Origin: a virus
Lineage: Duplodnaviria > Caudoviricetes
Direction: 5' to 3' (one strand)
DNA: 64,000 nucleotides
Virus record (IMG/VR): IMGVR_UViG_3300012971_001434
Location: 3,013-67,012 of that record
The notes beneath the pieces were generated by a model, which had not been told where the DNA came from, made no database searches, and saw only the letters and a program-made list of their open reading frames with translations. How positions within the stretch are numbered: the stretch's first letter is position 1; every line of letters starts with the position of its first letter. A program made the position numbers and the translations under genes. Shown one piece after another: positions 3,659 through 30,520 of this stretch.

Positions 3659-3874
3659 ATGTGGGACTTGATCTATATCGACATTGGCGTACTCGTCGTG
3701 CCAGTGCTGCTGGCGCTCCCGATATTCGCCCTCGTCCTGCTCGGGCGTGGGGCCTGGGAACTCTGGCAGTATGGGCGGCGGCGCGGACACATGCAGCACG
3801 CGAGGAAACAGCGATGCGGAACATACTGCGGAAAGCAACAACAGCGGGCATACCCCTGGCAGGCTATGCCCTGA
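3659..3874 (+). CDS. possible small membrane protein
   Basis: 71 aa with one hydrophobic segment; overlaps the pilin start by about 60 nt. Confidence 0.35.
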   Translation: MWDLIYIDIGVLVVPVLLALPIFALVLLGRGAWELWQYGRRRGHMQHARKQRCGTYCGKQQQRAYPWQAMP

Positions 3875-4140
3875 TCTACGGCGTGAGGTCGGCGGCAGCG
3901 GGCGGCTTCGGCATTGCCGGCCTGGATGCCTTTCTCACGACATTTGCGACTGGCGTGACCGGGATGGGGATCCTCATTGGCGGGGTGGGCCTGGCCGGGT
4001 ACATTGGGTCGCAGATGGACAACCCGTTCAGTACAATACTTGCTGGCTCCATAAATTTTTTTACTAAGGCAGGTATTTTGGGCGGTGGGACGGCCATGCT
4101 CGGGACGCTCGGCCTGGTGGCAGGAGGGACGCTCTATTGA
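3814..4140 (+). CDS. trbC: TrbC/VirB2 pilin precursor
   Basis: ATG 3814 after GAGGA; signal peptide ending SAAA; two Gly/Ala-rich hydrophobic helices; directly upstream of trbD. Confidence 0.8.
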   Translation: MRNILRKATTAGIPLAGYALIYGVRSAAAGGFGIAGLDAFLTTFATGVTGMGILIGGVGLAGYIGSQMDNPFSTILAGSINFFTKAGILGGGTAMLGTLGLVAGGTLY

Positions 4141-4590
4141 CGTCCTCCGCCAGCCAAGGCAGGCGGATTCCCTAGGTTGGCCCTCAACGCCCTGAGGGGG
4201 GTCCTGTGCTGTGACCCTTACTTACTCTTGGCCCAGGACGCGAACGTCCCTACCAAGGGCGACAACGGCAGCGTCAGCCGTTGCAAGAGGCATCTGATGT
4301 GTGTCGTATAGAGGATAGCCAGCGATATGCTGAAACAACTACCCCACGACGCAGTACCTCGTATGATGCGAGCTTTGCGGTACAACTTTTACGCTGATCC
4401 CTACGATCAGCAACCCCGCGAAGTCGTATTAGAAAGAGCAGACATACTGCACAAAATTATATCAAATGAGTGTAGTTTTGTCTATACACACTGCGTTAGA
4501 GAAATGACGCTGCGCGTTAGGGAATTGCTGCGATGCAGCAACCTTTCATTCCCCTGTCAGCTCAAGCAGACAGCCCCCTGAAAGGAGACG
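4137..4590 (+). ncRNA. structured element, copy 1 (unknown cis-regulatory RNA or ssDNA element)
   Basis: Homologous to 4920-5360 with compensatory changes in at least 5 hairpins. Confidence 0.65.
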
Positions 4591-4593
4591 AAA

Positions 4594-4893
4594 TTGGCGG
4601 AACAGGGGTCGCTCATCCACGGCTTCCAGGTGCCCATCTTGCGCGGCGTCTGGGAGCGCATTATCACGTTCGGTGCCCCGCGCATCTACGCCCGTACCTG
4701 GGCCTGTCTGTGGCTGTTCATCGGGCTGATTCTGCTGACGTACTGGGGGTTTAGGTGGTTAGCCGTGCCGTTCCTGGGATGGCTCCTCGGGCAGGGCGTG
4801 CTCGTGCTGCTCACGCAGTGGAACCCTAGATGGGACGACATGATGTATGCACAGATGAATCAGCGCTATAAGGCGCGTTACTCGGCGGGATAA
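4594..4893 (+). CDS. trbD: TrbD/VirB3
   Basis: TTG start after AAGGAG; GFQVPILRGVWERIITFGAPR, two TMs, WNPRWDD. Confidence 0.85.
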   Translation: MAEQGSLIHGFQVPILRGVWERIITFGAPRIYARTWACLWLFIGLILLTYWGFRWLAVPFLGWLLGQGVLVLLTQWNPRWDDMMYAQMNQRYKARYSAG

Positions 4894-4919
4894 AGCGTGC
4901 GCTTGGACACACTGGATAC

Positions 4920-5360
4920 TTGACGTCCTCTGCCCCGTAAACGAGGCAGATTCCCTACGTTGGCCCTCAACGTCCTGAGGGGAGACCTATGCAGTGTCTC
5001 TTACTTACTCGCGCTTCTCATCGCACGAGCGACCGTGCCTGCATCAAGCACGGGAAGAAGTCTCTTGGTGCATCCGTATGGGGCAGCCAGCACCAGGCTG
5101 TAGGTCAACTGCCGCGCGATGCAGACTTCATGTACGCGCTACGTTACGGTAGAGCTTTTACGGCTGTCCCTGTGACAGCCAACCGCCTAACTCTATTAGA
5201 AAGAGCAAGTACAACAGCATGAGTATATCAAACAAGTACAGTTTTGTCTATACGCAGTGTGTCAGGGAAATGACGCTCCGCGTTACGGAATTGCCGCGTT
5301 GCGGCAACCTTGCTTTCCCCTGTCTCCTTGAGGAGACAGGGGAAAGCAAGGAACTTTTGT
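4920..5360 (+). ncRNA. structured element, copy 2
   Basis: Homologous to 4137-4590; ends in a perfect 20-bp hairpin. Confidence 0.65.
5308..5360 (+). terminator. possible intrinsic terminator or attenuator
   Basis: CCTTGCTTTCCCCTGTCTCC-TTGA-GGAGACAGGGGAAAGCAAGG followed by AACTTTTGT. Confidence 0.5.
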
Positions 5361-5471
5361 GGAGAGGGGAGCGCTGGCCTTTCGGGGTGCAACTGCCCTC
5401 GGTGCAGCAGGAACGAGCACGATTGAGCACAAGGATCACGTGTGCACACAATCTAGAAAGCAGGCCGTGCC

Positions 5472-5948
5472 GTGGCTGAGGTCGAGCAGGTCATCCTCCG
5501 CTGTCAGCAGTGCCACGAGCCCGTCCGCGTCCCCCTCTTTCCCCTGATCAATCACGGGGAACGGGCCTGCGCCTGTACCTTCGTCGGCGGCACGGATCCC
5601 TGGCCCGACTGGTGGCAGGCGGAACGCGTGCAGGACGAAGGCGCCGGGGGCGAGGCGGCGCCAAGGAGAGAAGCCGTGGAAACGATTTGGAAATATCCGG
5701 TCCCCATCGCCGACACGTTCACGCTGGAGTTAGCGCCGGGGGCCCGACCGCTCAGTGTGCAGTGTCAGGACGGCGCCCCCTTTCTCTGGGTGCTCCTTGA
5801 TCCCAGTCTGGGGCCTGAGCCCCGACATTTTCACCTGCTCGGCACGGGCCACCCCCGTGGCGCACGCTCCCTGGGGACGTTTCTGGGGACGTTCCAGCTT
5901 GCTGGCGGCACCCTCGTGTTTCACCTCTTTGCTGAGGATGCGTCCTGA
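5472..5948 (+). CDS. phage-type hypothetical protein inserted in the trb operon
   Basis: CxxC..CxC N-terminus; C-terminal TIWKYP..GTGH..GTFQL.GG.LVFHLF motif seen in uncharacterised phage proteins; stop overlaps trbE ATG. Confidence 0.7.
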   Translation: MAEVEQVILRCQQCHEPVRVPLFPLINHGERACACTFVGGTDPWPDWWQAERVQDEGAGGEAAPRREAVETIWKYPVPIADTFTLELAPGARPLSVQCQDGAPFLWVLLDPSLGPEPRHFHLLGTGHPRGARSLGTFLGTFQLAGGTLVFHLFAEDAS

Positions 5949-8503
5949 TGCCGGTCTTCGCTGAGTACGTCCGCCCCAAGCCTGCGCCGGATCGTGTCAG
6001 TGACAAAATGCCCTGGCGAGCCGTGATTGCGCCCGGCGTGGTGCTCCAGAAGGACCGCTGGCAGACGCTGCAACGCACCTATGCCGTGCGCGGCCCCGAT
6101 GTCATGGGGCTGGCGCGCGAGGTGCAGGGGGCCCTCATCATGCAGGCCAACACGGTGCTCAAGAAGTTTGGGGGCAAGTGGATGCTCCACTCCGAAGCCC
6201 AGCGCGTGCGCGTCACCGACCTGCCGCCGCTGCCCGAGGAGACCCCGCTGCTCGTGCGGCTCCTCGACGCCGACCACCGCGCCCGGCTGCTGGCCCATCC
6301 CGGTATCCGCGAGACGACGTACTATCTGACGCTTTCCTGGACGCCGCCGCCGCCGAGCATGCAGCGCTGGGGGGGCTGGTTCGTGCGCGGGCCAGGGAGC
6401 CCGGCGCGACCGACCCACGGCCTGGGCACCGTGGTGCGGGATTTTCTGGACCAGGCCGATTACTTCATGGACTTGCTCAAAGGCGTGCTGGCGGAATGCC
6501 GCCCCACCACCACACCGGAGACGCTGACGTATCTCCATAGCTGCGTGTCAGATCGCTGGTATAAGATCGGGCTGCTGGCGTCCCTCATGGATATCGATCA
6601 CCAGCTCTGTGACACCGCCCTCGACCCGGCCGGCTGGTATCCGCAACTGGGGCGCTGGCATATCCGCGTCTGTTCGGTCAATGGCTACCCGCGTCAGTCC
6701 GTCGTCGGCATCATGCGCGACCTGGAAGCGTTACCGCTGGACTTTCGCTGGTGCACCCGCTGGCTGGGGCTCGAGCGCCATGTCCAGGACGGCATCTTGC
6801 GCAAAGCCCAGGGCGCCTGGGTGCACGAGGAAAAAGGTCTCAGTGATCGCCTGAGTGAGAACTTGAGCCATGAAGCCACTCGCGTGCTCAACCGCGACGC
6901 GACCAACAAAGCGGAGGATGTGGACATCGCCCGGCAGGAGATCGGCGCGGACCTGCTCGCCTATGGGCAGTTCACCAGTACCGTGACCGTCTGGGACGAA
7001 GACCCGGAGCGGGCCGATGAGAAGCGCCGCCTGGTGATGCAGGCCTTTGCCACGCGGGAAATTGCCACGGTGGAAGAAGGCGCCCACCTCGTGGCGGCCT
7101 GGTTTTCGAGCCATCCCGGCAACCGCGTCGACAACGTCAACCAGACCCACCAATCGTCGCTGACGCTGGCGCACTTCTGCCCCGGCCTGACGGCCGCCTG
7201 GCGCGGACCCGAGCGGGACACCTACCTCCAGGGGGGCCCCTGGTGCTATGTGCAGACGGAAGGCCACACGCTCTTTCGCATCGTCAATCATCTCAGAGAC
7301 TTAGGGCATTTTCTCGTGCTCGGGGCCACCGGGGCCGGCAAGAGCACGCTGGGGAACTGGCTGCGCGCCATGTGGCTGCAATACCCCTCCTCCCAGGCCA
7401 AACTGTTTGACATTGATGGGCATGGCCGGCTGCTCACCCTCCTGCTCGGCGGGAGTTGGTTTGACCTGGGGGGCCCGACGGCTCGCTTTCAGCCCTTGCG
7501 CCACATCGACGACCCGCTCCGGCGTGGCATCGCCATCCAGTGGCTCCTCGACCTGATGGAGGAGTACCACGTGCCGGTGACGGCCACCGTGCAGGCGCAC
7601 ATTGGCGGCAACATCCTCAAGCTGCTGCGCTATCCCCACGGAGGACGCACGCTCAGTACCCTGCTCACGCTGATGGCCGACGGGGCCCGGGAGACGGAAC
7701 TCAAAGCCAAGGCTGGTCGCATCGATGCCCAGGGGATCAGTCACCCCGATACGGACCTGCGTGCCCTCGTGAAGGAGTGGCAGGAGGTGCGCTGGGTCCT
7801 GCAACGCTTTGCGGATGGCGGGGAGTATGACGGGCTCTTTGACGGCACGGAGGATGATTTTGACGACAACCCGATCCAGACCTTTGAGCTGCGCGACCTG
7901 CTGCAGCGCCCCCGCCTACTCGGCCCGATCCTGCGCTACGTGTTCCCGCAGATTGAGCTGCAGATGACGACGGACCACCCCATGCTGTTCCTGTTTGACG
8001 ATGTGGCTATTCCGTGGGAAATCCCGAAGATCCGGCAAGACTCGAAGGACTGGCTGCGCACCACGCGCAAGAAATCGGTGAGCCTGGGCTTCATGACCCA
8101 TAGCCTCGCGGACATCTTTGGGGCGGAGGAGGGACGGATGAGCGACATGGGACCGATGCTGGTTGAGTCGTGCCCTGTCAGGTTCTATTTGGCCAATCCT
8201 GAAGCAGCCAAGCCGACCATCCGGGCCATCTACCGGCGCATTGGCCTGGAAGATACCGCCATTGACCAGGTGGCGATCATGCGGCCCCAGCGTGACGCCT
8301 ATTACGAGCTGCGGGAAGTGGGGCAGCGGCCCTTCTCGCTGGCGTTCAGCCGCTTCATCCTGGATTGCATTGCTAGGAATACCGCGGAAGACCATCGGCT
8401 CATGGATGAGATACTGGGGAAGGAGGGCCGGGAAGGCTTTGCCGCCGCCTGGCTGCGTCATCATAACTATGAGGACATCCTGCATGCACACCAGATCTTC
8501 TGA
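5948..8503 (+). CDS. trbE: TrbE/VirB4 ATPase
   Basis: 851 aa; GHFLVLGATGAGKST Walker A; LFLFDD Walker B; RKKSVSLGFMTHSL; ESCPVRFYLANPEA. Confidence 0.95.
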   Translation: MPVFAEYVRPKPAPDRVSDKMPWRAVIAPGVVLQKDRWQTLQRTYAVRGPDVMGLAREVQGALIMQANTVLKKFGGKWMLHSEAQRVRVTDLPPLPEETPLLVRLLDADHRARLLAHPGIRETTYYLTLSWTPPPPSMQRWGGWFVRGPGSPARPTHGLGTVVRDFLDQADYFMDLLKGVLAECRPTTTPETLTYLHSCVSDRWYKIGLLASLMDIDHQLCDTALDPAGWYPQLGRWHIRVCSVNGYPRQSVVGIMRDLEALPLDFRWCTRWLGLERHVQDGILRKAQGAWVHEEKGLSDRLSENLSHEATRVLNRDATNKAEDVDIARQEIGADLLAYGQFTSTVTVWDEDPERADEKRRLVMQAFATREIATVEEGAHLVAAWFSSHPGNRVDNVNQTHQSSLTLAHFCPGLTAAWRGPERDTYLQGGPWCYVQTEGHTLFRIVNHLRDLGHFLVLGATGAGKSTLGNWLRAMWLQYPSSQAKLFDIDGHGRLLTLLLGGSWFDLGGPTARFQPLRHIDDPLRRGIAIQWLLDLMEEYHVPVTATVQAHIGGNILKLLRYPHGGRTLSTLLTLMADGARETELKAKAGRIDAQGISHPDTDLRALVKEWQEVRWVLQRFADGGEYDGLFDGTEDDFDDNPIQTFELRDLLQRPRLLGPILRYVFPQIELQMTTDHPMLFLFDDVAIPWEIPKIRQDSKDWLRTTRKKSVSLGFMTHSLADIFGAEEGRMSDMGPMLVESCPVRFYLANPEAAKPTIRAIYRRIGLEDTAIDQVAIMRPQRDAYYELREVGQRPFSLAFSRFILDCIARNTAEDHRLMDEILGKEGREGFAAAWLRHHNYEDILHAHQIF

Positions 8504-8747
8504 TCCCCTCGTCGCTCTGTGGCACGATACCACCCGAGCGCTGCACTGGCGCTCGTGGTGTCCTCTGCCCTCCCACGAGCAGGCGGTCATGCGCCTGATC
8601 CTTTGCCGGGAGTTGCAGGAGTTGGATCATGATCCGGCATGGTCGAAATCGCCGTGGGCATGGAGACATACACATTGGCAACTGCTTGAATTGAAAGCCT
8701 GTGCGGGGCACAGCGTGTGGGAGGGCGCGCGTGGAGACGAAGCATGA
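8484..8747 (+). CDS. hypothetical protein (87 aa)
   Basis: ATG 8484 after GAGGA; fills the trbE-trbF gap. Confidence 0.5.
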   Translation: MHTRSSDPLVALWHDTTRALHWRSWCPLPSHEQAVMRLILCRELQELDHDPAWSKSPWAWRHTHWQLLELKACAGHSVWEGARGDEA

Positions 8748-9483
8748 GACCCCAGGCATGCTGCACGCCACCGGCTACGTCGACCAGCTGCGGCGCATCG
8801 AGGATGCCTCAGCGGCGGAAGTCGAGCGCATCCAGCACGTCTACCGTGAGATCGAGCGCCGCGATGGGGCGGCCCAGTGGCACGCCGCCCTCTGGTTTCG
8901 CTTCGCCTGCCTGCTCGCCGTGGTGCTCATCGTGGCGGTGAGTGCGGTGGTGTATTTCGCCATGCAGGCCAGCCGGGTGCAGGCGTTCGTGCAGCCGGTG
9001 CAGGTGACGGAGGAGGGGAAGATGGTCCTGGTGGGGGTGCCCAAGGACCTGCTCGACTACCAGCCCGACGATAGCCAGGTCATGGATATGTTGGCGCAGT
9101 ACGTGACCAAGCGGCGCTGGCGCGGGGACGAGGAGGGCTATAAGCGCACGCGTAACGACTGGGCGTGGCTTTACAGACACAGTTGCGGCTTTGGCTCTAA
9201 GCTGCTCGCCAACGACGAAATCAAGGAACTCCCCTTCAAGCCGAGCAAGATGCGGGCCTCCATCGAGATTAAGAGCATCACCAAGACGGCGACGCCCGAG
9301 AGCTGGCAGGTGGTCTGGCATGAGGTCAGTGTCGATAAGCTGGCTTCAACGCTGAAGGAGCAGGACTACGTGGGCACATTTACGGTCGGGAGGATGCGAC
9401 CCAAAACCATGGTCGAAGCGATGGACAACCGCTTAGGTCTCTGCGTCAATGGTGTCGACGTCGCACCGAGGGCCGGGTCATGA
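8731..9483 (+). CDS. trbF: TrbF/VirB8
   Basis: ERRDGAAQWHAALWFRFACL followed by a TM and an NTF2-like periplasmic part; ends DNRLGLCV; GTG 8731 after GGAGG. Confidence 0.85.
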   Translation: METKHETPGMLHATGYVDQLRRIEDASAAEVERIQHVYREIERRDGAAQWHAALWFRFACLLAVVLIVAVSAVVYFAMQASRVQAFVQPVQVTEEGKMVLVGVPKDLLDYQPDDSQVMDMLAQYVTKRRWRGDEEGYKRTRNDWAWLYRHSCGFGSKLLANDEIKELPFKPSKMRASIEIKSITKTATPESWQVVWHEVSVDKLASTLKEQDYVGTFTVGRMRPKTMVEAMDNRLGLCVNGVDVAPRAGS

Positions 9484-10616
9484 TGGCAACGATGATCCCG
9501 ACAGTATGCATGCTGGTCCTGCTCCTTATGGGCTGTGCGAAGGAAGCGCCACCGCTGCCACCCGTGCCCCCAGCGCCCGAGGACCTGAGTACGTGGAGTC
9601 TTCCTGAGCTGGTGCAGCCGCCACCGCCTGAGACACCACAGGCCCAGTCCGCACCACCGGAAAAGCCGACCCCAGCCGAGCAAGTGCTCGACTTTGCCCC
9701 TGGCACCACGTTTAGCCTGACGGTCCCCGTAGGCGCCCCGCTCGACATCGTCATGCAGCGGGGCGAGGAAGTCCGCAACGTGATCGGGGGGGACCGTGCA
9801 CCGGTCGAGGCGAACCAGACCACGCGCTGGGAACTGAAGGAAGGGGCACACGGCGTGGGCGACACCCTCCAGCACCATCTCTTTCTCAGTGCCACCCTGC
9901 CGGGCTTGACCACGGGACTGATCGTCACCACGACGAAACGCACGTATTACATCACGTGTAAAAGTGTCAAGACGTCGCTCATTCGCACGGTGCGCTGGCG
10001 CTACCCAGTGGAGACGACCACCCCCACCCTCACGCTCAAGGTGCCGCCGCTGCTGCCCGATCCGGCGCAGCCGAAGCACTATCATGTGGGGTATGCGTTG
10101 ACCTCCGCCCAGAAGCATGCCCCCGACTGGCTGCCACGCGGGGTGTTTGATGACGGCCGCAAGATGTATGTGGTGTTCCCCGAGATCACGCTGTTTGAAG
10201 TGGCCCCGATGGTGCGGATGGTGGGACCGAATGGCCCGGCCCTGATCAATGCCCGCACCTTTCTCAACGTGCTGATTCTCGACCAGCTCGCCCCGCGCCT
10301 CGAACTCCGGGTCGGGCTCGGCGAGACGGCGGAGGTGGTCAGTATTGCCCGTGGGGCCTTGCGCACGATTGCGTGTCCAGGGGACGAGGCGTGCCCCGTA
10401 TGGCCAGTCGCCGCGCCGGCCCTCGCGCAGCGTTCGCCCCCCGCGCAGCCACTCCCCGGTGCCGTGGGCACCGGAACGGTGTCGCATACCGACAGTCTCA
10501 GCGCCCCCGCCACGTATGCGCAGCCGCCGCAGCTCTACACGCATAGGCCAGCGCCTGGGTCATCACCCGTGCCGCCGCCGCCAGCGACCCCCGCGCCACA
10601 AGGAGCCCAGCCATGA
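9480..10616 (+). CDS. trbG: TrbG/VirB9 with lipoprotein signal
   Basis: LLMGC lipobox; LIVTTTKRTY, VRWRYP, VFDDGRKMYVVFP motifs. Confidence 0.9.
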   Translation: MMATMIPTVCMLVLLLMGCAKEAPPLPPVPPAPEDLSTWSLPELVQPPPPETPQAQSAPPEKPTPAEQVLDFAPGTTFSLTVPVGAPLDIVMQRGEEVRNVIGGDRAPVEANQTTRWELKEGAHGVGDTLQHHLFLSATLPGLTTGLIVTTTKRTYYITCKSVKTSLIRTVRWRYPVETTTPTLTLKVPPLLPDPAQPKHYHVGYALTSAQKHAPDWLPRGVFDDGRKMYVVFPEITLFEVAPMVRMVGPNGPALINARTFLNVLILDQLAPRLELRVGLGETAEVVSIARGALRTIACPGDEACPVWPVAAPALAQRSPPAQPLPGAVGTGTVSHTDSLSAPATYAQPPQLYTHRPAPGSSPVPPPPATPAPQGAQP

Positions 10617-10915
10617 ATACAGAGACGCGTCGCGTCACGCTGCGCTATGGGCTCTGCACCATCCCCGCGGGTCGCACCCTCGACCGGTATCTGTTCAGCG
10701 ATCTGGCGCATGCCAGACGGTGGCTGACGCAGCCCTGCGTGACGGAGTCGGACTATGAGGTCGCCATCGTGCGGGTGGCCAGGAGTACGCGGCGCTGTCC
10801 CGACTGTGGCTATCGGCGGGACATCTGGTTGCACCCGTTTCAACGCCTGACCATCGCGCAGTTCCTCGCGCAGAGCACCGCCTCGCCGGCGCCGCCAGAC
10901 GGAGGCCAGCCATGA
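10613..10915 (+). CDS. hypothetical protein with CxxC
   Basis: 100 aa; ATGA overlaps at both ends. Confidence 0.65.
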   Translation: MNTETRRVTLRYGLCTIPAGRTLDRYLFSDLAHARRWLTQPCVTESDYEVAIVRVARSTRRCPDCGYRRDIWLHPFQRLTIAQFLAQSTASPAPPDGGQP

Positions 10916-11928
10916 CGCGCACCCCGGCCCCCTTTGGCACCCCAGCGACGCGCCTGCATGCGGGCCGTATCCTGCTGGTGCTGTTCCTGCTCGTGGGCGG
11001 CGCCTTCGCCACCTGGGCCTGGATCTTCCACCGCGGTGGTGGGGCCAGGACGACCGAGGCTGAGAAGGGCACCTCGCCGGGTTGGACGGCGGCGCAGATG
11101 CACTACGAGAAGCCAGAGGTCGTCGAGAAAGCGCCCCCACCCCCACCCGTCGACATGACGGCGGCTGAACTGGCGCGGATCAAGGCCATGCTGGCGCAAC
11201 TGGCCGCCGAGCTGGAGGCCCTGAAGAACCGCAAGCCGCCCACGACGACGCCCGTGGTGCAGCAACAGCCGAAGCCCGAGCCACCGAAGAAGGTGCCAGG
11301 CAGCATGCTGTTCGTCAGCCACGAACCGAAGGAAGGGCCAGGAATGCCCAAAGTGGACGAGTATGTGCTGGCACCGGGCGCCACGAAAATTCCGTGCGTG
11401 ATCGAAACGAGCATCAACAGCGATGTGGAGGGCTTTTTTACGGCCCGCGTCTCCAGCAATGTCTACGACACGGCGACAGGCCGACATCTCCTCGTGCCCC
11501 AGGGCTCGACCATTCTGGCGCGGGATCACTCGTTAGACCTGCTCTACGGCAACGAACGCCTGCCCACCACGAGTCTCACGCTGGCCCTGCCGGATGGCCG
11601 CTCGGTCGATCTGGGCAAGGCCCCGGTCACGGACCAGCAAGGTATATCAGGACTAACAGGAAGGGTCAATAACCACTACTGGCGCCTGTTTGGGGCGATC
11701 TTTATTGGCGGGGCGTTGCGGGGCGGCGTCCAGGCGATGCAGACCGGGCTGGCGCAAGCGGCCGGCGTGGGGCAGATCGCGGCAGGGTACGGGAGCGTGG
11801 TCAACCAGGCGCTGAGCCCTCGACTTGGGCGCGCCTTGGACACCAGACCCACGATTGAAGTGGACGCAGGACAAATCTGCAACGTCTTGCTGACCAAGGA
11901 GTTACGACTGCCTGCCATGTGGCAATAG
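10912..11928 (+). CDS. trbI: TrbI/VirB10
   Basis: TM plus Pro-rich linker; LAPGATKIPCVIETSINSD, DQQGISGLTGRVNNHYWRLFG, PTIEVDAG. Confidence 0.93.
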   Translation: MTRTPAPFGTPATRLHAGRILLVLFLLVGGAFATWAWIFHRGGGARTTEAEKGTSPGWTAAQMHYEKPEVVEKAPPPPPVDMTAAELARIKAMLAQLAAELEALKNRKPPTTTPVVQQQPKPEPPKKVPGSMLFVSHEPKEGPGMPKVDEYVLAPGATKIPCVIETSINSDVEGFFTARVSSNVYDTATGRHLLVPQGSTILARDHSLDLLYGNERLPTTSLTLALPDGRSVDLGKAPVTDQQGISGLTGRVNNHYWRLFGAIFIGGALRGGVQAMQTGLAQAAGVGQIAAGYGSVVNQALSPRLGRALDTRPTIEVDAGQICNVLLTKELRLPAMWQ

Positions 11929-11938
11929 GAGCTGGAGT

Positions 11939-12211
11939 ATGTCCCAACGGTGTTGCGCGACCTGCCGCTGGCATGATGTCGAGGGGTTCTATGCCTTCTA
12001 CGGCCAGAACGCGGATGGCATGGGCAATATGGGGTTTTGTCGCAAGGCACCGCCCTTGCCCGATTTCACCCGCTTGATGGGGCCGGTAGTCCAGGACGCC
12101 GACCGCATCGATCTCTTTGTCTTTGCCCTCTGGCCCGAAACAGACGACACCGACTGGTGTGGCGCGTGGGAGGTCCACGCGGAGGAAGCACCGCAAGGAG
12201 ACACGCCATGA
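11939..12211 (+). CDS. Cys-rich phage-type hypothetical protein
   Basis: CCATCRW..GFCRKAPP..WPET..DWCG pattern; GGAG SD. Confidence 0.7.
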   Translation: MSQRCCATCRWHDVEGFYAFYGQNADGMGNMGFCRKAPPLPDFTRLMGPVVQDADRIDLFVFALWPETDDTDWCGAWEVHAEEAPQGDTP

Positions 12212-12564
12212 AGCATCGACCTTCCCCCTATGAGGCCCGCAGCGAGGGCGAACGCCAACGCAACAACGCCCGGCTCGGTACCCGCTGGCAGGAGCGCCCA
12301 CTGACGCACGAGGAACGCCTCGCCCTGGTCCTGGAGCCGCGCCTGAAGCGGGAGTGGTGGGCCGGGTTCTGGTGGGGCTGGCTCTGGGGCGCCCGCTGGG
12401 TCGTGCTGCTGACATGCGGGCTGGCCCTCAGCGGCTGCATGGATGTGGCGCAGTGGCAGCTACGGACCTTCTACGGGCTGGATTGCCGGCAGGAAAAGCT
12501 GGTGGATGGGAAGTGCGTCCCGGTGAAGAAGGGAGGGTCGGATGTCCAAACTGCTCATCCGTAG
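12208..12564 (+). CDS. small putative lipoprotein (entry-exclusion or VirB7 candidate)
   Basis: ATG 12208 after AAGGAG; hydrophobic segment then LSGC and a short mature part with 2 more Cys; directly upstream of trbJ. Confidence 0.55.
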   Translation: MKHRPSPYEARSEGERQRNNARLGTRWQERPLTHEERLALVLEPRLKREWWAGFWWGWLWGARWVVLLTCGLALSGCMDVAQWQLRTFYGLDCRQEKLVDGKCVPVKKGGSDVQTAHP

Positions 12565-13225
12565 TGTGCCTCTTGCCTGTTTTTTTCTGCTTCTTAAGAG
12601 CCAGTTAGCTATAAGTCAATTAGTTGTAATAGATCCGGGGGATATTGCTCAAAATACCATAACAGCAGCACAATCAGTGCTCATAACTATCGAAGAGACG
12701 ATCCAGACGGCACAAGGTGTACTCAATCTGACCCTCCTGGAAAGCATCATCAGCACAGGAGGTATCCTGGAGGATATCGCCCTGCTAGGCCAGCTCATGG
12801 AAGAAGCCTCGCAGATTTCCACCGACTTGAACTCCCTGCAGGCCCAGATCGACACGCTCATGCACTGGCAGACCGCGCCCGACACACGCGATGGGCTGGC
12901 GACCCTCATCGCCCAGTATAAACAACTGAAGCAAGAACTCTACACCTACGCCGCCCGCGTGCAGACGCTGATGCGCACCGCCATCACGACGGTGCGGCAC
13001 ATGCAGATGCTGCTGGAGACGCTGGCGCAACTGGTGGGCAATCTGCAAGGCCAGCAAGTCGTGGCGCAACATGCCGCAGCGATGCACAAGCATCTGGCCA
13101 ACCTCTCCGTGCAGCACGGGGCCTACTATCAGGCGAAGTCCCTGGACCAATTGATGGAGGGGGTGACCATCGAGAGCATCAGGAAGATTCAACAGCGGCG
13201 CATTGAAGACTGGCCCAGCTTCTGA
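12542..13225 (+). CDS. trbJ: TrbJ/VirB5
   Basis: Signal peptide; VVIDPGDIAQNTITAAQS; Gln-rich helical body. Confidence 0.85.
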   Translation: MSKLLIRSVPLACFFLLLKSQLAISQLVVIDPGDIAQNTITAAQSVLITIEETIQTAQGVLNLTLLESIISTGGILEDIALLGQLMEEASQISTDLNSLQAQIDTLMHWQTAPDTRDGLATLIAQYKQLKQELYTYAARVQTLMRTAITTVRHMQMLLETLAQLVGNLQGQQVVAQHAAAMHKHLANLSVQHGAYYQAKSLDQLMEGVTIESIRKIQQRRIEDWPSF

Positions 13226-13233
13226 GGTGAGAC

Positions 13234-14163
13234 GTGCTGACGCTTATTGACGACATCACCGGCGCCTTTATCGCTGCCCTCGCGAACGGCTGGGCCACCC
13301 TCGCCACCTTCACCCTGCCCATCCTGGGCGTGTGTGCGGTCATTAGCTTCTATCGCGAGTACAGCACCACGGTTATGTCGAGCGGGGCCGGGATGGGCGA
13401 TGCCATGGCCCACGGCATCCTGCTCATCTTCGCCTCAGGGTGCTACCTGTTTCTGCTCACCAACCTCTTTCCCATCGCCCAGGCGGCGCTCAACACGGTG
13501 TTCTACTGGGGCCTGCTGGGGGCCGGGGGCGGTGCGACCACCGCCCAACTCCAAGCCCCGTCGTTTATCTTTGAGACCGGTCTCAAGGCCGCCAAAACCA
13601 TTGCCGATTTTGACACGGTGATGCGCTCCGCCGCCACCATGTTTCACCTCGCCAATCACCCTGGGGATCTCCTCGCCTACTGGGCCATCATCCTGGCCTT
13701 TCTCGGGGTCACGCTGCACGTCTCCATGATGCTCATCGAGTTTTACTTAGCTGTCATGCTCTCGTCGGTGCTGATCCCGTGGGGCATCTGGCGTCTGACC
13801 TCGGGCATCGCGGAATTTAGCCTGGGGTGGCTCATGGGGAGTCTCATCCGCGCCCTCGTCACCAGTGCGCTCATTGGCGTGGCGACGCCGACGTTTACCT
13901 TGCTCAATCAGCCCACGGACGCTGGCGGATTCTTTACCTTACCCCAGACGTTTCGCCTCGTAGCGGGCTCCATGCTCTACCTCGTCCTGTGCTGGGTCAT
14001 TCCCGTGCGGGCCGCGACGCTCGCCGGGCAGGCGTCGCTCGGGCTGACCGGGTCGACCTTGCTGAGCGCGGCCATGTCGGGACAGCGCTTTGCGACGATG
14101 GCGTCGAGCGTCACGAGTAGTGCGCGGCGTGTCATTTCACCGCTGGTGAACCGGACCTATTAA
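13234..14163 (+). CDS. trbL: TrbL/VirB6
   Basis: Polytopic membrane protein; LIEFYLAVMLSSVLIPWG; follows trbJ. Confidence 0.88.
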   Translation: MLTLIDDITGAFIAALANGWATLATFTLPILGVCAVISFYREYSTTVMSSGAGMGDAMAHGILLIFASGCYLFLLTNLFPIAQAALNTVFYWGLLGAGGGATTAQLQAPSFIFETGLKAAKTIADFDTVMRSAATMFHLANHPGDLLAYWAIILAFLGVTLHVSMMLIEFYLAVMLSSVLIPWGIWRLTSGIAEFSLGWLMGSLIRALVTSALIGVATPTFTLLNQPTDAGGFFTLPQTFRLVAGSMLYLVLCWVIPVRAATLAGQASLGLTGSTLLSAAMSGQRFATMASSVTSSARRVISPLVNRTY

Positions 14164-14177
14164 CCCAAGGAGACCCC

Positions 14178-14354
14178 ATGATTCCTGCGACGGTCCCTCT
14201 CGTGATTGTCGTCTGTGCGCTCGTCGGCAATGTGCTCGGGAATTATCTCTGGCAGTGGTGGACGGATCGTGACTTCGCGCGGGCCAGCGAGCGGAGTTTT
14301 TATCAGGCCGTGCTGGCACTGACCATTATTCTCGGCCTCTGGTTCGCCCACTAG
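14178..14354 (+). CDS. small 2-TM protein (58 aa)
   Basis: Translated by hand, MIPATVPLVIVV...LWFAH; AAGGAG SD. Confidence 0.6.
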   Translation: MIPATVPLVIVVCALVGNVLGNYLWQWWTDRDFARASERSFYQAVLALTIILGLWFAH

Positions 14355-14365
14355 GAGGAGCCCTC

Positions 14366-14749
14366 ATGACCCGTGAAGAACGTATCGCGTTACGCGAACA
14401 GCGGCTGCAAGAAGCCCTGGCGAAGACCCGCCGCCAGCGTGCCCAACTGGAGTCCCAGCAGCGCACGGCCGAGCGCGCGGCGAGGGCCAAACGCCGCCAG
14501 CGCGTCGGCACCCTGGCCGATGAGGCCGGGCTGCTGGCGTGGGACGACGCGACCCTGGCGCTGCTCTTCCAGGTGCTGGTGGGGCTGCGCTCGACCCCCA
14601 ACCCCATCGCCGTGCTGGAGGCCCTCCTCAGCGATCCGCCCGAGGTGCTGGCGGAGACTGCCGCTGCCGCTGGCCCCTTCCTCCTCGCTTCCTTCCAGTC
14701 AGACTCGTCAGAAGTCTCTGGGGAGGAGAGGGGGCATTTGCTCTCCTGA
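14366..14749 (+). CDS. relaxosome accessory protein (TraC/TraD/MobS-like)
   Basis: Basic coiled coil then RVGTLADEAGLLAWDDATL, like Ti-type TraD; directly upstream of the relaxase. Confidence 0.7.
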   Translation: MTREERIALREQRLQEALAKTRRQRAQLESQQRTAERAARAKRRQRVGTLADEAGLLAWDDATLALLFQVLVGLRSTPNPIAVLEALLSDPPEVLAETAAAAGPFLLASFQSDSSEVSGEERGHLLS

Positions 14750-14810
14750 TCGTGGGAAACAACCTGTGCATTAGGGTTTTCTCGGTGAGGAAGCTCTGAG
14801 GGAGCGCGAG

Positions 14811-16058
14811 GTGGCCCAGCTTTACTTCCACAGAAGCGTCTACAAGAGTGGGAACAAACAGGCCACAGCGAAGGTGCGCTATCTCACCAGGAAGCCTGGC
14901 CATACCCTGAGCCGTGCGGATCAATACGAGCGGTTCATCGCCGAGGGACGCGAAGACCTGTACTATACCCAGACACGCAATCTGCCCGACTGGGCGAGGG
15001 GAAGTCCCCATGTGTACTTTCGAGAGGCCGCCGAGTATGAACGGGCCAATGGGAATGCGTTCGAGGAGTGGAAAATCATGCTACCCCAGGACCTCAGCCC
15101 ACGGCAGAACATGGCGCTCATGCGCGACCTCGTCGACACCATTGCCGGAGACCGGCTGCCCATGACGTATGCCTTCCATTGCCCGACCACCATGGCAGGG
15201 ACCAAGGCGCAGCCGCATCTGCATCTCATCCTCTCGGCCCGACAAAACGATGGGATTGCGCGCACACCCCAGCAATACTTCAAACGCTATAATCGCACGC
15301 ACCCCGAGCGCGGCGGTGCCCCGAAAGACCCGGCCCTGTATCACCTGAAGGCGGTGAAGCAGTGGCGCATCACGATCACCGATGTCGTCAATCTGCACCT
15401 AGAGCGGGCGGGCTGTGAGGGACGAGTCCATCCTGACACGCTGGAAGCCCAAGGGATCGAGCGCACGCCCGAGCCGAAACTCCTGCCCTCCGAGAGCCGC
15501 GCCTATCGGGAGCAGGGCATCGTCAGTCCGCGCATGCAGGAGGTGCTCACCATCCGGGCGAATCGCGAGCGCACCCGTGCCGATGAGCAGGCGAGCGCGG
15601 TAGAGTACTGGGACAGCAGGAAGGCCGAGCTGGGGCTCACCGATACCATGGATCTGCCAGCGCAGCTCACGGTCATTGGTGAGGCGCGAGCCCTGGTGCG
15701 GGACCAAACCCCGGCGCAGCGGCAGGAGCAGGAGGCGCAGCGGCTGCACGAGCGCGGGCAGGAGGCGGCAGACGATGCGTGGCTGGATGCGGTGCTGCTG
15801 TGGGCGGAAGAGACCGGGGCACGGGCGCTGCGTGACATGGGGTGGGAGGCAGTGCAGGAAGCGCGCGAGGTCGGGCAGGAGGGCCTAGAGGCGGGGTTGC
15901 GCCGCGAGCGGGTCGTGGCTCAAGAGTGGGAGGGCGTGGAGCAGGACCTGGCGGCACTGGCCAGGCAGCTCGACGCGCTGGACACGGGGGCTGGACGGAG
16001 CGGGCGCGTGCCGGTCAGGCTGTGGGACAAGGAGCGTGAACAGGGGTGGGGCATTTGA
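14811..16058 (+). CDS. mobA: MobA/MobL (MOBQ) relaxase
   Basis: Tyr24 in AKVRYLTR; ERANG, LPQDL, AFH..QPHLH HUH, DGIART..FKRYNR.HPERGGAPK. Confidence 0.92.
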   Translation: MAQLYFHRSVYKSGNKQATAKVRYLTRKPGHTLSRADQYERFIAEGREDLYYTQTRNLPDWARGSPHVYFREAAEYERANGNAFEEWKIMLPQDLSPRQNMALMRDLVDTIAGDRLPMTYAFHCPTTMAGTKAQPHLHLILSARQNDGIARTPQQYFKRYNRTHPERGGAPKDPALYHLKAVKQWRITITDVVNLHLERAGCEGRVHPDTLEAQGIERTPEPKLLPSESRAYREQGIVSPRMQEVLTIRANRERTRADEQASAVEYWDSRKAELGLTDTMDLPAQLTVIGEARALVRDQTPAQRQEQEAQRLHERGQEAADDAWLDAVLLWAEETGARALRDMGWEAVQEAREVGQEGLEAGLRRERVVAQEWEGVEQDLAALARQLDALDTGAGRSGRVPVRLWDKEREQGWGI

Positions 16059-16073
16059 CAGAAAGGAATCTTT

Positions 16074-16298
16074 ATGATCACGCGACCGTGGCGTCTGCTC
16101 ACCATCGCCGGGCATGAGGTGCTCTTGTGCCTGCTGTGTGATCGCTATAGCGCCAATCCCAATGACATCAAGGCCCTTTTCTGTGGGTATTGTGGCGTAT
16201 GGCTGGCCACGGTCGTCGACGACTACCAGCGCCCGGATGAAGACCTCTTGCCGCCACGCCACGCGGCAGGGCCACCGCCAGAAGGAGGCCGGCCATGA
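16074..16298 (+). CDS. small CxxC/CxxC hypothetical protein
   Basis: 74 aa; AAGGA SD. Confidence 0.65.
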   Translation: MITRPWRLLTIAGHEVLLCLLCDRYSANPNDIKALFCGYCGVWLATVVDDYQRPDEDLLPPRHAAGPPPEGGRP

Positions 16299-16612: not shown

Positions 16613-16693
16613 GTGTGCTATGATGAGCGGGCACGCCAGAGGAGTTGGTCCCCTGGCGCACCCTGACCACACGATCTCGCTGGAGGACATCGC

Positions 16694-16969: not shown

Positions 16970-16983
16970 AACTTCTGTTTGTG

Positions 16984-28517: not shown

Positions 28518-30187
28518 TGGAATACAGTGCGCAACAAGAAGAACTCTTTGGCATTCTCATGAACGGCGCCAGTGATGATTTATGGTGGGATGTGCAAACC
28601 CGCCATGATGTCCGGATCTTTCGCAGCGACGCCAGTCGCTGGGGACAGTTGAAAACCCGTGCCCGCAAACAAGGCATTGCCGTCTGGGAGTGGGAACGGG
28701 CGGTCGATCAGGATGATCAGGATCACGTCGAGCATCTGCGCGCTTCGACACGATTCCCCTTTGTCGATCTGCGACCAAGGATGCCTCCACTCCCAACCGC
28801 CGTGACGTGTGCTTCCCCACAGCTCGAAACCTGGCTCAGTACCTATGTGCAGCATAGTCAGGAATGGGCGCCACGCGCCGCGCCGGGCTACCATGCCGCG
28901 GTTGCCCTATGGGTTCTCTCTACCGTTGCCGCGAGGCGAATCGTGGTACACACGGGGAGTCATGACGTTTATCCCACGCTCTTTCTCGCCCTCATCGGCG
29001 AAAGTACACTATGGACGAAGAGCACGACCGCGGCCATAGGATTACGTATCATTCGCCGGGCCGGGTGTGGCCATTTCCTGAGCCCTGATCGCACCACGCC
29101 CCAGTTTCTCCTGAAACTCATGTCTGGCGTGGTCCCAACCGATTACAGTAAAAAGGCGGAAGACGAGCAAGAGCTGATGCGCAAAGCCTATGGCTTCTCG
29201 GCCCAGCGTGGATGGTTTTATGAGGAATGGGGAGGGATGCTGCATCAGATGCGTCGGGTCGACTCTCCGCAAGCCGAACTCAATAAGTTACTCATCGTGC
29301 TCGAAGGCGGCGCCACGACATTTGAGACCGGGACCATTCAGCGCGGTTTGGAACGCATCGAGCACCCCTATCTCGCACTTCTGGGCAATGCGACGATGCA
29401 TGATCTTCTGCCGTTTATGGGCGAGGGTGATGCGTGGTGGCATGACGGATTCTGGCCCCGCTTTGCGTGTATTACACCGCCGCTCGGCCAGGCGCCTCTC
29501 CGCACGCCTAGGCCCCGCAAGCCCTATAGCATTCCACAGGAACTCCTGATTGGTCTGCATAATTGGGATGAGCGTCTGGGCTATCCACATGTGGCCATTG
29601 AGGAGGTGACCCTGGCCTCCGGCAAGCGGACGGGAGAGTGGGTTGGCACCGTGACGCAGAAGCCTGAGCAGAGCATGGAATTGGCCGGGGACGTCTACGA
29701 TGCGATGGAAGCCTACGATGACGCGCTCTTGGAACTAAGTCATGGCGACGGCGTCCATCCGGATCTGCGACCCTGGTATGCACGGGCCAAGGAAAAAGTC
29801 TTGCGGGTCGCTATGTTGCTGGCCTCTGTGGAAGGGGACGAGTGCATCGAGTTGCCGTACTGGCAGGAGGCTCAGGTATTGGTCGAGGGCTGGCGCCAGA
29901 ATCTGCATGATCTGGTGGGGACTGTCAGCACGGAAGGTGGACAAACGCGCCAGGGTATGCGGATCCATCGCCTCGAACGACGGGTGGAAGAGATGCTGAG
30001 TAAGAGTGGAGGGATGACGGCCCGCGAGATGCAACGTCATCTCAAAGGCGTGACGAGTGCTGAATTGCAGCAGGTGCTCGTCAGCATGGAGAAGATCGAA
30101 CTCATCACGCATCTGGATATGGGGCAGAAGAGAGTGTACCTCATTTTCCAGGAAGCGCCGGAAGAGGGGGAAGGCGATGAAGTGTAA
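28514..30187 (+). CDS. DUF3987-like phage/plasmid replication P-loop protein
   Basis: YPTLFLALIGESTLWTKST, FYEEWGGML, DGFWPRF, C-terminal wHTH-like segment. Confidence 0.75.
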   Translation: MMEYSAQQEELFGILMNGASDDLWWDVQTRHDVRIFRSDASRWGQLKTRARKQGIAVWEWERAVDQDDQDHVEHLRASTRFPFVDLRPRMPPLPTAVTCASPQLETWLSTYVQHSQEWAPRAAPGYHAAVALWVLSTVAARRIVVHTGSHDVYPTLFLALIGESTLWTKSTTAAIGLRIIRRAGCGHFLSPDRTTPQFLLKLMSGVVPTDYSKKAEDEQELMRKAYGFSAQRGWFYEEWGGMLHQMRRVDSPQAELNKLLIVLEGGATTFETGTIQRGLERIEHPYLALLGNATMHDLLPFMGEGDAWWHDGFWPRFACITPPLGQAPLRTPRPRKPYSIPQELLIGLHNWDERLGYPHVAIEEVTLASGKRTGEWVGTVTQKPEQSMELAGDVYDAMEAYDDALLELSHGDGVHPDLRPWYARAKEKVLRVAMLLASVEGDECIELPYWQEAQVLVEGWRQNLHDLVGTVSTEGGQTRQGMRIHRLERRVEEMLSKSGGMTAREMQRHLKGVTSAELQQVLVSMEKIELITHLDMGQKRVYLIFQEAPEEGEGDEV

Positions 30188-30520
30188 CCTACTGCCCGCT
30201 GAAGCAGGCAGCTTTCACTCTGGCGCGACATGCCCCGAAGCGCAGGCATACCTCCGAGTGTTCAGGCCGGGTTACTTCGCGCTGCGTACAGCGCTACTTC
30301 GACCCCAGCCAACGCCGGAGCGTTGGTTTGTACTTGAAGCATTTTACGCAGAGAAAGATTGCTCTCTACAACCGTATACGCTTCGTGTCAAAGAGCAGAG
30401 CTGTTATCTCTCAAGGAGAGTGCCTTGATGCTCAAGGAAGAAGTATACAAGCTGTTCGCCCTTCAGGCGAACCTTTTATTCCTCTGCTCGCTGAAGCAAG
30501 CAGCTTCCTACAAGGAATCA
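30182..30520 (-). mobile_element. non-autonomous IS200/IS605-family mini-element (PATE-like)
   Basis: Paired subterminal hairpins at 30192-30211 and 30484-30503 (GC-TTCA-GC core on the minus strand); TnpB-type right end ...GGGCAGTAGGTTACAC; no ORF. Confidence 0.7.

What the first reader, a model, noticed from the sequence alone, without database searches (positions are those of the whole stretch)
4137..5360. Two ~450-nt structured elements with multiple compensatory base changes flanking trbD
Seen: copies at 4137-4590 and 4920-5360 both begin TTGACGTCCT and keep their helices despite divergence. Paired helices are: TCCGCC/GGCGGA vs TCTGCC/GGCAGA (inner GC-CAAG-GC vs CG-TAAA-CG); GGGTC/GACCC vs GAGAC/GTCTC; GCTGATC/GATCAGC vs GGCTGTC/GACAGCC (both flanked by TTTTAC and AACC); GCGTTA/TGACGC vs GTGTCA/TGACGC (G-U wobbles); and TTGCTGC/GCAGCAA vs TTGCCGC/GCGGCAA. 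A conserved CCCTCA/TGAGGG pairing could form a pseudoknot or alternative fold. I recognise no known riboswitch, intron or ribozyme consensus. Inference: an undescribed large cis-regulatory RNA controlling pilus genes, or an Frpo/ssi-like ssDNA structure.
Basis: partly seen in the sequence, partly recalled or inferred. Interest (0 to 1): 0.88.

Follow-up and report, generated by a model that had tools for sequence, protein, structure and literature searches.

The report
Gene-less mini-transposons carrying a guide-like RNA
The two structured ~450-base repeats are not switches for the pilus genes. They are protein-less IS200/IS605-type mini-transposons, inserted backwards between the genes, that carry their own promoter and a ~300-base structured RNA resembling a TnpB guide RNA: a known kind of element, here in a new family found in soil phage and plasmid-like contigs.

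Summary
Copies A (4137-4592) and B (4920-5357) are real. With six homologues, 43 of 86 predicted base pairs show two-sided compensatory changes, and nothing in Rfam matches.

- The RNA is on the minus strand, antisense to the trb genes: 68 G-U cells against 3 A-C cells. Each copy has a strong minus-strand sigma-70 promoter.
- The shared start, TTGACGTCC plus a hairpin, is the reverse complement of the right end of IS200/IS605-type transposons. In about 40 other loci that motif lies just 3' of a tnpB gene.
- The hairpin is followed by 10 nt ending in TCAA, as in IS608. The other end has a matching left-end hairpin.
- Close relatives of this T4SS operon have overlapping trbC stop and trbD start codons (TAATG), with no element between them.
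- Related copies sit next to unrelated phage genes.

My reading is protein-less PATE-like elements, or standalone omega-RNAs, that depend on a host TnpA and TnpB. This kind is described in the literature, and this scan has noted it on other DNA.

Two points are unresolved. The 5' two-thirds of the RNA occurs only in the gene-less elements. No TnpB, host or transcript was found.

The parts
4137..4592 (-). Element A: complete protein-less IS200/IS605-type mini-element (456 nt), inserted between trbC-like and trbD-like genes
   Evidence: Homology to the other copies stops exactly at 4137. The relative L071 reads ...GACGCTCTA-ATGGCAGAG... where the window reads ...GACGCTCTA[element]ATTGGCGGAA.... 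A soil contig joins 4135 to 4595.
4137..4171 (-). Right end (RE) of A. On the minus strand it reads GGAATCCGCC-loop-GGCGG followed by AGGACGTCAA, that is 10 nt ending in TCAA
   Evidence: The same motif lies just 3' of tnpB genes in about 40 loci. Three of these genes were confirmed by Pfam. The 10-nt/TCAA geometry matches IS608 (PMC3201880).
4137..4449 (-). Predicted RNA body of A (about 313 nt), from the inferred transcription start to the transposon boundary
   Evidence: Consensus fold and pair counts. Helices in window coordinates and strand asymmetry.
4456..4484 (-). Sigma-70 promoter of A: TAGACA, 17 nt, TG-n-TATAAT
   Evidence: 11 of 12 matches, with an extended -10. A promoter sits at the same alignment position in all 8 homologues.
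4493..4585 (.). Left-end region of A: hairpins 4493-4510, 4525-4541, and the left-end hairpin 4542-4585 (core CTGTC-loop-GACAG)
   Evidence: The left-end hairpin and its loop resemble the left-end hairpin of a tnpB-bearing IS: CTGCC-TGCTTTAGCT-GGCAG in L009. The outer stem covaries: CCTTTCA/TGAAAGG, CCTCCTA/TAGGAGG, CCTTTCT/AGAAAGG.
4117..4136 (-). Predicted guide of A: the flank 3' of the RE, antisense to the last codons of trbC
   Evidence: Inferred from the TnpB reRNA rule that the guide is about 16 nt of flank beyond the RE (PMC8612924). Not shown here.
4593..4597 (-). Target motif (TAM-like) of A: CCAAT on the element strand, ATTGG on the plus strand. It contains the TTG start of trbD
   Evidence: Empty-site comparison. 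Other copies have TGTGG or GGTGG at this place.
4920..5357 (-). Element B: second complete copy (438 nt)
   Evidence: B and the stretch up to 5947 are absent between trbD and virB4 in the relatives.
4920..5215 (-). Predicted RNA body of B (about 296 nt), including the RE at 4920-4954
5222..5250 (-). Sigma-70 promoter of B: TAGACA, 17 nt, TATACT
   Evidence: 10 of 12 matches, with an extended -10.
5291..5351 (.). Left-end hairpins of B: 5291-5307, and the 20-bp left-end hairpin 5308-5351
4900..4919 (-). Predicted guide of B (flank beyond the RE)
   Evidence: Inferred, as for A.
5358..5362 (-). Target motif of B: CCACA on the element strand, TGTGG on the plus strand, with GTG 5359 opening a 62-aa ORF
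30182..30520 (-). Element C: a third, related gene-less element with the same left-end layout and 5' RNA module but a different right end (..GGCAGTAGGTTACAC)
   Evidence: Sequence read. The covariance model R1 scores 55 bits. A near-twin lies in L070.
3661..4140 (+). trbC-like gene, whose TGA stop is now supplied by the first bases of element A
4594..4893 (+). trbD-like gene, now starting at TTG with a GGAG supplied by the left end of A

Best explanation
A and B, and a third relative at 30182-30520, are non-autonomous, protein-less IS200/IS605-family elements. They are PATE-like, or 'standalone omega-RNA' elements, and lie antisense to the T4SS genes.

Each element has four parts:
- a left-end hairpin region;
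- a sigma-70 promoter;
- a structured RNA of about 300 nt;
- a right end (hairpin plus 10 nt ending in TCAA) of the same type that closes tnpB-bearing IS elements.

Inferred mechanism:
1. A Y1 transposase (TnpA) encoded elsewhere, presumably in the host, moves the element as single-stranded DNA and pastes it 3' of a CCA[AC]N motif without a scar.
2. The internal promoter makes an RNA that runs through the right end into the flank, so its 3' end is a guide equal to the neighbouring DNA.
3. A compatible TnpB supplied in trans would use this RNA to cut element-free copies of the site. That would restore or spread the element by recombination.

Shown here: the structure, the strand, the ends, the insertion, and the lack of any gene. 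Inferred: transcription, TnpB binding, and cleavage.
For: 1. Right end. TTGACRTCCTCYGCC-N-GGCRGATTCC recurs in 23 viral and 28 genomic stretches. In most of them a 350-500-aa ORF with a TnpB C-terminus ends next to it on the other strand. Pfam finds OrfB_IS605 and the Cas12f1-like TNB domain in all three tested. Flanks differ right up to TTGAC, which marks the boundary.
2. Geometry. The RE hairpin foot is followed by 10 nt ending in TCAA. The left-end hairpin lies 15-19 nt from the flank. IS608 has 10 nt/TCAA and 19 nt.
3. Left end. The left-end hairpin resembles the RE hairpin and the left-end hairpin of a tnpB-bearing IS.
4. Insertion. L071 (VirB4 88% identical) and L072 have trbC and trbD abutting with no element. 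Soil contigs join across A with TGATG, TAATG or TAGTG junctions. There is no target duplication.
5. RNA. 43 of 86 pairs are compensatory. G-U against A-C cells are 68 to 3 in favour of the minus strand. The only two promoter-like sites in 3900-5600 are the two minus-strand ones.
6. Link to TnpB-type RNA. The order long stem, then hairpin 2, then RE hairpin in the last ~110 nt is the order found at the 3' end of tnpB-bearing relatives. There the long stem encloses tnpB coding sequence.
7. No coding. There is no Pfam hit, no TnpB remnant and no conserved ORF.
8. Literature. PATEs that encode omega-RNAs, and standalone omega-RNAs that act in trans, are described (PMC10055086; PMC10691335).
Against: - No tnpB or tnpA was found in this 67-kb record, nor a TnpB domain in two other carrier contigs. 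The host is unknown.
- The 5' two-thirds of the RNA was found in none of about 40 tnpB-bearing loci, and in none of five genomes that hold such IS elements. This includes the invariant module UGCUCUUU...GGUUG-hairpin-CGUAAAA. No parent IS is known, so homology of the whole RNA to a TnpB omega-RNA is unproven.
- At about 300 nt, the RNA is twice the length of the ISDra2 reRNA, which is about 150 nt.
- The target motif is only loosely defined (CCAAT, CCACA, CCACC, ACACA).
Confidence: 0.7

Rival explanations
1. The IS200/IS605 ends serve only for mobility. The 300-nt RNA is a cargo with its own job in phages and plasmids, not a TnpB guide. It could be an antisense or protein-binding regulatory RNA, or a guide for an unknown effector.
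For: The 5' module occurs only in gene-less elements and goes with at least three different right ends. It has its own strong promoter. No TnpB domain was found in any of the three carrier contigs searched for it (G000, G001, G002). The RNA is transcribed antisense to the neighbouring gene.
Against: The 3' third shares its sequence and helix order with the 3' ends of tnpB-bearing IS elements and runs to the exact transposon boundary, as guide RNAs do. The flank is plain neighbouring DNA, not a conserved spacer. No shared candidate effector was found between G000, G001 and G002.
Confidence: 0.17
2. Plus-strand cis-regulatory leader RNA, such as a riboswitch or attenuator, that controls trbD and virB4.
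For: The elements sit just upstream of trbD and of the virB4-proximal genes. On the plus strand there are terminator-like hairpins, and a stem that covers part of the Shine-Dalgarno sequence, at 4525-4585 and 5291-5351.
Against: The helices favour the minus strand by 68 to 3. The element is absent from the closest T4SS operons. It is present beside unrelated genes. It has transposon ends.
Confidence: 0.04
3. Single-stranded-DNA promoter or priming signal (Frpo/ssi-like) for conjugative transfer.
For: The record carries a T4SS, and the ends are hairpins that act in ssDNA.
Against: The same elements occur in a 54-kb terminal-repeat phage in which my searches found no T4SS gene, and in other phage contigs. 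The -35 and -10 boxes lie in ordinary duplex spacing, not across a stem. The elements are absent from related T4SS operons.
Confidence: 0.03
4. Dead relics of transposons with no present function.
For: There is no transposase or nuclease nearby. Truncated scars exist (G001:2919 and L068).
Against: Copies 70-80% identical keep nearly all pairs through compensatory changes, and all keep a promoter. The same family is polymorphic in soil metagenomes.
Confidence: 0.06

Closest known systems
Standalone omega-RNAs, and PATEs of IS200/IS605 (OMEGA) systems. Sources: Altae-Tran 2021 as summarised in PMC10691335; Meers 2023, PMC10055086
   Same: Protein-less. Bounded by IS200/IS605 left and right ends. 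Carries only a guide-RNA-type scaffold that abuts the flank. Dispersed copies. Presumed to depend on TnpA and TnpB in trans.
   Different: Found here on phage and phage-plasmid contigs with no effector in the replicon. The RNA is about 300 nt with its own sigma-70 promoter. Its 5' module was not found in any tnpB-bearing IS. The parent IS is not identified.
ISDra2 and IS608 (tnpA-tnpB IS with reRNA/omega-RNA; PMC8612924, PMC3201880)
   Same: Subterminal hairpins. RE hairpin plus 10 nt ending in TCAA. Scarless insertion 3' of a short motif. The RNA ends at the RE and the guide is the flank. Burkholderia IS copies with the same RE hairpin insert at TTGAT, the ISDra2 motif.
   Different: No tnpA or tnpB. 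The target motif is CCA[AC]N rather than TTGAT or TTAC. The RNA is twice as long.
Phage-encoded TldR guide RNAs (PMC10705468)
   Same: A TnpB-type guide RNA carried by a phage.
   Different: TldR loci encode the protein next to the RNA and have a fixed guide against a host gene. Here there is no protein, the guide is simply the neighbouring DNA, and the elements still look mobile.
IStrons (group I intron fused to IS605; PMC10690162)
   Same: A structured RNA inside an IS605-type element that lessens harm to the host gene.
   Different: No group I intron signal at E up to 10. The elements lie antisense to the host genes and between them, so splicing plays no part.

Membership tests
IS200/IS605 non-autonomous (PATE-like) element | Subterminal hairpins at both ends, alike, on one strand; no inverted terminal repeats | tested here: met
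   RE: CCGCC-UGCCUUGGCU-GGCGG. Left end: CUGUC-UGCUUGAGCU-GACAG. Both are on the minus strand. The left-end hairpin resembles that of the tnpB IS in L009.
IS200/IS605 non-autonomous (PATE-like) element | Cleavage motif inside the element about 10 nt 3' of the RE hairpin; left-end hairpin about 19 nt from the target motif | tested here: met
   AGGACGTCAA is 10 nt and ends in TCAA. The left-end spacing is 15-19 nt in six copies. IS608 values are from PMC3201880.
IS200/IS605 non-autonomous (PATE-like) element | Scarless insertion without target duplication; empty sites exist | tested here: met
   L071 and L072, and soil contigs, have trbC and trbD abutting. The flanks CTCTA and ATTGG are not repeats. 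The empty sites are in relatives, not in isogenic DNA.
IS200/IS605 non-autonomous (PATE-like) element | Conserved short target motif 5' of the left end | tested here: inconclusive
   CCACA in 4 copies, and CCAAT, CCACC and ACACA in one each. There are too few copies and the spacing varies.
IS200/IS605 non-autonomous (PATE-like) element | No protein gene inside | tested here: met
   No Pfam hit. No TnpB remnant by blastx. No ORF conserved among 8 copies.
IS200/IS605 non-autonomous (PATE-like) element | Mobilised by a Y1 TnpA in trans | not testable with these tools
   No Y1_Tnp match in the record. The host genome is unknown.
TnpB omega-RNA (reRNA), standalone form | The RNA ends at the RE boundary of an IS whose relatives carry tnpB, so the flank is the guide | tested here: met
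   The RE motif lies just 3' of confirmed tnpB genes. Conservation stops at GTCAA.
TnpB omega-RNA (reRNA), standalone form | Scaffold homologous to the omega-RNA of a tnpB-bearing element | tested here: inconclusive
   The last 35-68 nt match by nhmmer, and the stem, hairpin 2, RE-hairpin order is shared. The 5' ~200 nt was found in no tnpB locus.
TnpB omega-RNA (reRNA), standalone form | A compatible TnpB in the same cell | tested here: inconclusive
   None in G000, G001 or G002. The host is not identified.
TnpB omega-RNA (reRNA), standalone form | Transcribed, bound by TnpB, and guides DNA cleavage | not testable with these tools
   There is only a promoter prediction.
Cis-regulatory leader RNA / riboswitch | Sense-strand structure in the leader of the controlled gene, kept with that gene in relatives | tested here: not met
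   The structure is on the minus strand. It is absent from operons with 77-91% identical VirB4.
Frpo/ssi single-strand signals of conjugative plasmids | Tied to conjugative leading regions; the promoter is formed by the folded single strand | tested here: not met
   Present in a terminal-repeat phage in which my searches found no T4SS gene, and in other phage contigs. The promoter is an ordinary duplex site.
IStron / group I intron | Group I core; same orientation as the interrupted gene | tested here: not met
   No Intron_gpI match at E up to 10. The elements are antisense and intergenic.

The most novel reading that the evidence does not exclude
The family is an RNA-only selfish element adapted to phages and plasmids, with two adaptations.

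First, it borrows the host's TnpA and TnpB. Its promoter-driven guide marks element-free alleles of co-infecting relatives for cutting, so it homes like a homing-endonuclease gene but without encoding a nuclease.

Second, it inserts harmlessly at gene junctions. Its target motif, CCA[AC]N, is the complement of a GTG or TTG start codon. Its left end supplies the GGAG ribosome-binding site, and its right end can supply a stop codon.

On this reading the conserved 5' module, which is absent from tnpB-bearing IS elements, would be an added RNA domain that stands in for a missing protein or mRNA context.
Probability: 0.2. Interest if true: 0.65.

Novelty: new member of a known kind. Interest (0 to 1): 0.35.

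Why it matters
This removes a false lead: there is no new riboswitch-like controller of conjugation genes here.

It adds a well-defined RNA family of about 300 nt that is absent from Rfam. The family has a clear consensus structure and more than a dozen members in soil and other phage contigs.

It also adds phage and phage-plasmid examples of effector-less guide-RNA transposons. If a cognate TnpB is found, the RNA gives a new scaffold and TAM pair. It would also allow a test of whether such elements act as RNA-only homing elements between competing phages.

The insertion changes how trbC ends and how trbD is translated. A supplied stop and Shine-Dalgarno sequence now replace TAATG coupling. 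Anyone annotating or expressing this T4SS should take this into account.

Tried and rejected
- Rfam at gathering and at E up to 10 on the window, and at gathering on 8 related loci: only chance hairpin matches.
- blastn of copy A against the plasmid and phage collections: no match.
- The search for related loci with VirB4 in viral contigs: nothing. Relatives were reached through the protein search instead.
- Public runs: no RNA holder listed, so there is no evidence on expression either way.
- blastx of seven copies against three TnpB proteins: best E 0.07, so no coding remnant.
- Conserved ORF ('leader peptide') across copies: none. Open frames differ between copies.
- Parent IS carrying the 5' module next to tnpB: not found. 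This covers a pattern scan of viral contigs, nhmmer and the R1 model over about 50 held loci, and R1 in five genomes.
- Host search with VirB4 in 301 Chloroflexota genomes: one 29%-identical hit, so the host is still unknown.
- Shared effector candidate among G000, G001 and G002: only tail genes, a methyltransferase and small ORFs are shared.
- A closing helix between the invariant 5' UGCUCUUUC and the bases around the RE hairpin is predicted. It never varies, so it is neither supported nor refuted.

Full report
**Observation.** The window is most of a 67-kb IMG/VR record. Positions 4137-4592 (A) and 4920-5357 (B) are two copies of one sequence. Both begin with TTGACGTCCT, and BLAST identity is about 70%. 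No Rfam family matches at gathering score anywhere in the window. At E up to 10 only chance hairpin hits appear. The plasmid and phage collections hold nothing similar.

**What the shared start is.** The pattern TTGACRTCCTCYGCC-N(7-12)-GGCRGATTCC occurs twice in the window, against zero expected. It also occurs in 23 stretches of viral contigs and 28 of bacterial genomes. The genomes include Burkholderia, Azospirillum, Streptomyces, Micromonospora and Ottowia, and MAGs labelled Chloroflexota, Gloeobacterales, Holophaga and Lentisphaeria.
- In most of these stretches, a 350-500-aa ORF on the opposite strand ends at or inside the motif. Its C-terminus reads ...HDRDxNAAxNIL....
- Three such ORFs were checked and all carry OrfB_IS605 plus the Cas12f1-like TNB domain. 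They are therefore TnpB.
- Flanks of independent copies differ right up to TTGAC.

On the tnpB strand the motif reads GGAATCCGCC-loop-GGCGG-AGGAYGTCAA followed by the flank. This is the right end (RE) of an IS200/IS605-type element: a hairpin, then 10 nt ending in TCAA. That is the IS608 arrangement (PMC3201880). Burkholderia anthina copies with this RE insert 3' of TTGAT, the ISDra2 motif (PMC8612924).

**Gene-less relatives.** A pattern specific to the window's version found further copies with no ORF:
- two full copies, one truncated copy, a 17-nt scar and one unexamined RE motif in a 54-kb phage with direct terminal repeats (G001);
- one copy each in G002 and G003 (the contigs of L024 and L005);
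- one copy each in four soil contigs, L067, L069, L070 and L077.

None of G000, G001 or G002 gave a match to the TnpB Zn-ribbon domain (Pfam PF07282) that means anything. G000 gave only a 12.8-bit hit in a 122-aa ORF. G000 also has no OrfB_IS605 and no Y1 transposase.

**Strand, promoter and structure.** Eight copies align from a promoter to the RE, and conservation stops exactly at GTCAA (alignment A2).
- The consensus fold is better in the minus sense: -192 against -174 kcal/mol.
- Of 86 pairs, 97.4% of cells pair and 43 pairs have changes on both sides. None of 500 shuffles reached this, and sliding the partners drops pairing to about 40%.
- The same helices contain 68 G-U cells and 3 A-C cells. 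Read on the plus strand they would be 88% paired. The RNA is therefore minus-strand, antisense to the trb genes.
- The only two sigma-70-like sites in 3900-5600 are on the minus strand at equivalent places: TAGACA-17-TATAAT at 4484-4456 and TAGACA-17-TATACT at 5250-5222. Both have TG extensions. Every homologue has a promoter-like site there, although the DNA upstream comes in several types.

The predicted transcripts start near 4449 and 5215 and run through the RE into the flank.

**Left end.** Beyond the promoter lie one or two small hairpins and then a long hairpin at 4542-4585 in A and 5308-5351 in B.
- Its core, CTGTC-TGCTTGAGCT-GACAG, resembles both the element's own RE hairpin and the left-end hairpin of a tnpB IS, CTGCC-TGCTTTAGCT-GGCAG.
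- Its outer stem covaries among copies.
- It lies 15-19 nt from the flank.

**Insertion.** VirB4 of the window has relatives at 74-91% identity. In their contigs the order is T4CP, trbC, trbD, virB4, with no 450-nt gaps.
- L071 reads ...GACGCTCTAATGGCAGAG..., with TAA and ATG overlapping. The window reads ...GACGCTCTA[456 nt]ATTGGCGGAA....
- Contigs of other soil runs join across A with TGATG, TAATG or TAGTG junctions. They also show further family members in other contexts.
- There is no target duplication.
- Element A now supplies the TGA stop of trbC and a GGAG 6 nt before the TTG start of trbD.
- B lies inside a larger insertion at 4894-5947, which also holds a 62-aa ORF and a DUF7352 gene.

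On the gene strand, the flanks at the left end read ATTGG, TGTGG (four times) and GGTGG. This is CCA[AC]N on the element strand, and it contains the neighbour's start codon.

**Relation to TnpB guide RNA.** The last ~110 nt share a helix order with the 3' ends of tnpB-bearing relatives. The order is GUAAG, a stem, hairpin 2, six to ten bases, the RE hairpin, then AGGAYGUCAA.
- In the tnpB-bearing relatives the stem encloses about 55 nt of tnpB coding sequence. In the gene-less elements it closes a 6-8-nt loop.
- nhmmer matches only the last 35-68 nt.
- The 5' two-thirds is different. Its invariant module, UGCUCUUU...GGUUG-hairpin-CGUAAAA, has two covarying stems.
- Model R1 finds that module in A, B, the third element at 30182-30520, G001 and L067. 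It finds it in none of the roughly 40 tnpB-bearing loci and in none of five genomes with such IS elements.
- A pattern scan found the module in lower-GC phage contigs with other right ends (L075, L078, L079, L080), again with no tnpB upstream.
- There is no coding remnant and no conserved ORF.

**Interpretation.** The ends, the geometry, the scarless insertion, the dispersed copies and the lack of genes place A and B among non-autonomous IS200/IS605 elements. The literature describes PATEs that 'often encode omega-RNAs' used in trans (PMC10055086). It also describes mobilised standalone omega-RNAs that work with compatible effectors (PMC10691335). Notes from this scan report the same kind on other DNA, including phages and a case with an SD-like end in front of start codons. 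I did not test those notes.

The guide function here is inferred. No TnpB, host or transcript is in hand, and the 5' domain has no counterpart in known tnpB elements. The main rival is that the RNA is a cargo with another role.

**Verdict.** The cis-regulatory and Frpo/ssi readings are rejected. This is a new family within a known kind of element.

Noticed in passing
window 30182-30520 (minus strand): A third gene-less element. It has the same left-end layout (CTGCT-TGCTTCAGCG-AGCAG, then TTCGCC-TGAAG-GGCGAA) and the same 5' RNA module (R1, 55 bits), but a different right end (..GGCAGTAGGTTACAC). A near-twin lies in L070 at about 100-400.
   Followed up: partly
window 4894-5947: In relatives, the trbD stop and virB4 start are 12-24 nt apart. 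Here the window carries 26 nt, element B, a 62-aa ORF (5359-5547) and a DUF7352 gene (5472-5948) whose TGA overlaps the virB4 ATG. This looks like a moron-like insertion.
   Followed up: partly
window 4593-4597 and 5358-5362; the same place in L003, L024, L030, L067: Every copy whose flanking genes I read (window A and B, both G001 copies, L005, L024, L067) lies antisense to them and directly 5' of a start codon. The target motif's complement (NKTGG) contains the GTG or TTG start, and the left end supplies GGAG 5-8 nt upstream. This may be an insertion style that spares operons.
   Followed up: partly
G001 (L030) 2919-2935: A 17-nt scar, TTGACGTCCTCCGCCAG, of a right end with nothing behind it. 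L068 holds a copy cut off after the second hairpin.
   Followed up: no
L003 2487-2560, L070 2660-2715, L077 1930-2000: An alternative left-end region with three or four TTGTTCA(A/C) repeats upstream of the RNA promoter. This could be an operator for an unknown regulator.
   Followed up: no
window 36882-57823 against G001 7489-19888: The tail module is shared with a 54-kb terminal-repeat phage (40-86% amino-acid identity). My searches found no T4SS gene in that phage. This fits the view that the record is a phage fused with a conjugation module.
   Followed up: partly
L072 1-120: A 98-kb relative (VirB4 77% identical) carries a tnpB gene 0.6 kb upstream of its T4SS module, with a different right end (..GATGGAGTAGTCAC).
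   Followed up: no
L036, L037, L038, L051, L052: Five Burkholderia anthina copies of a 411-aa-TnpB IS share the RE hairpin of this family. All of them insert 3' of TTGAT, the ISDra2 target.
   Followed up: yes
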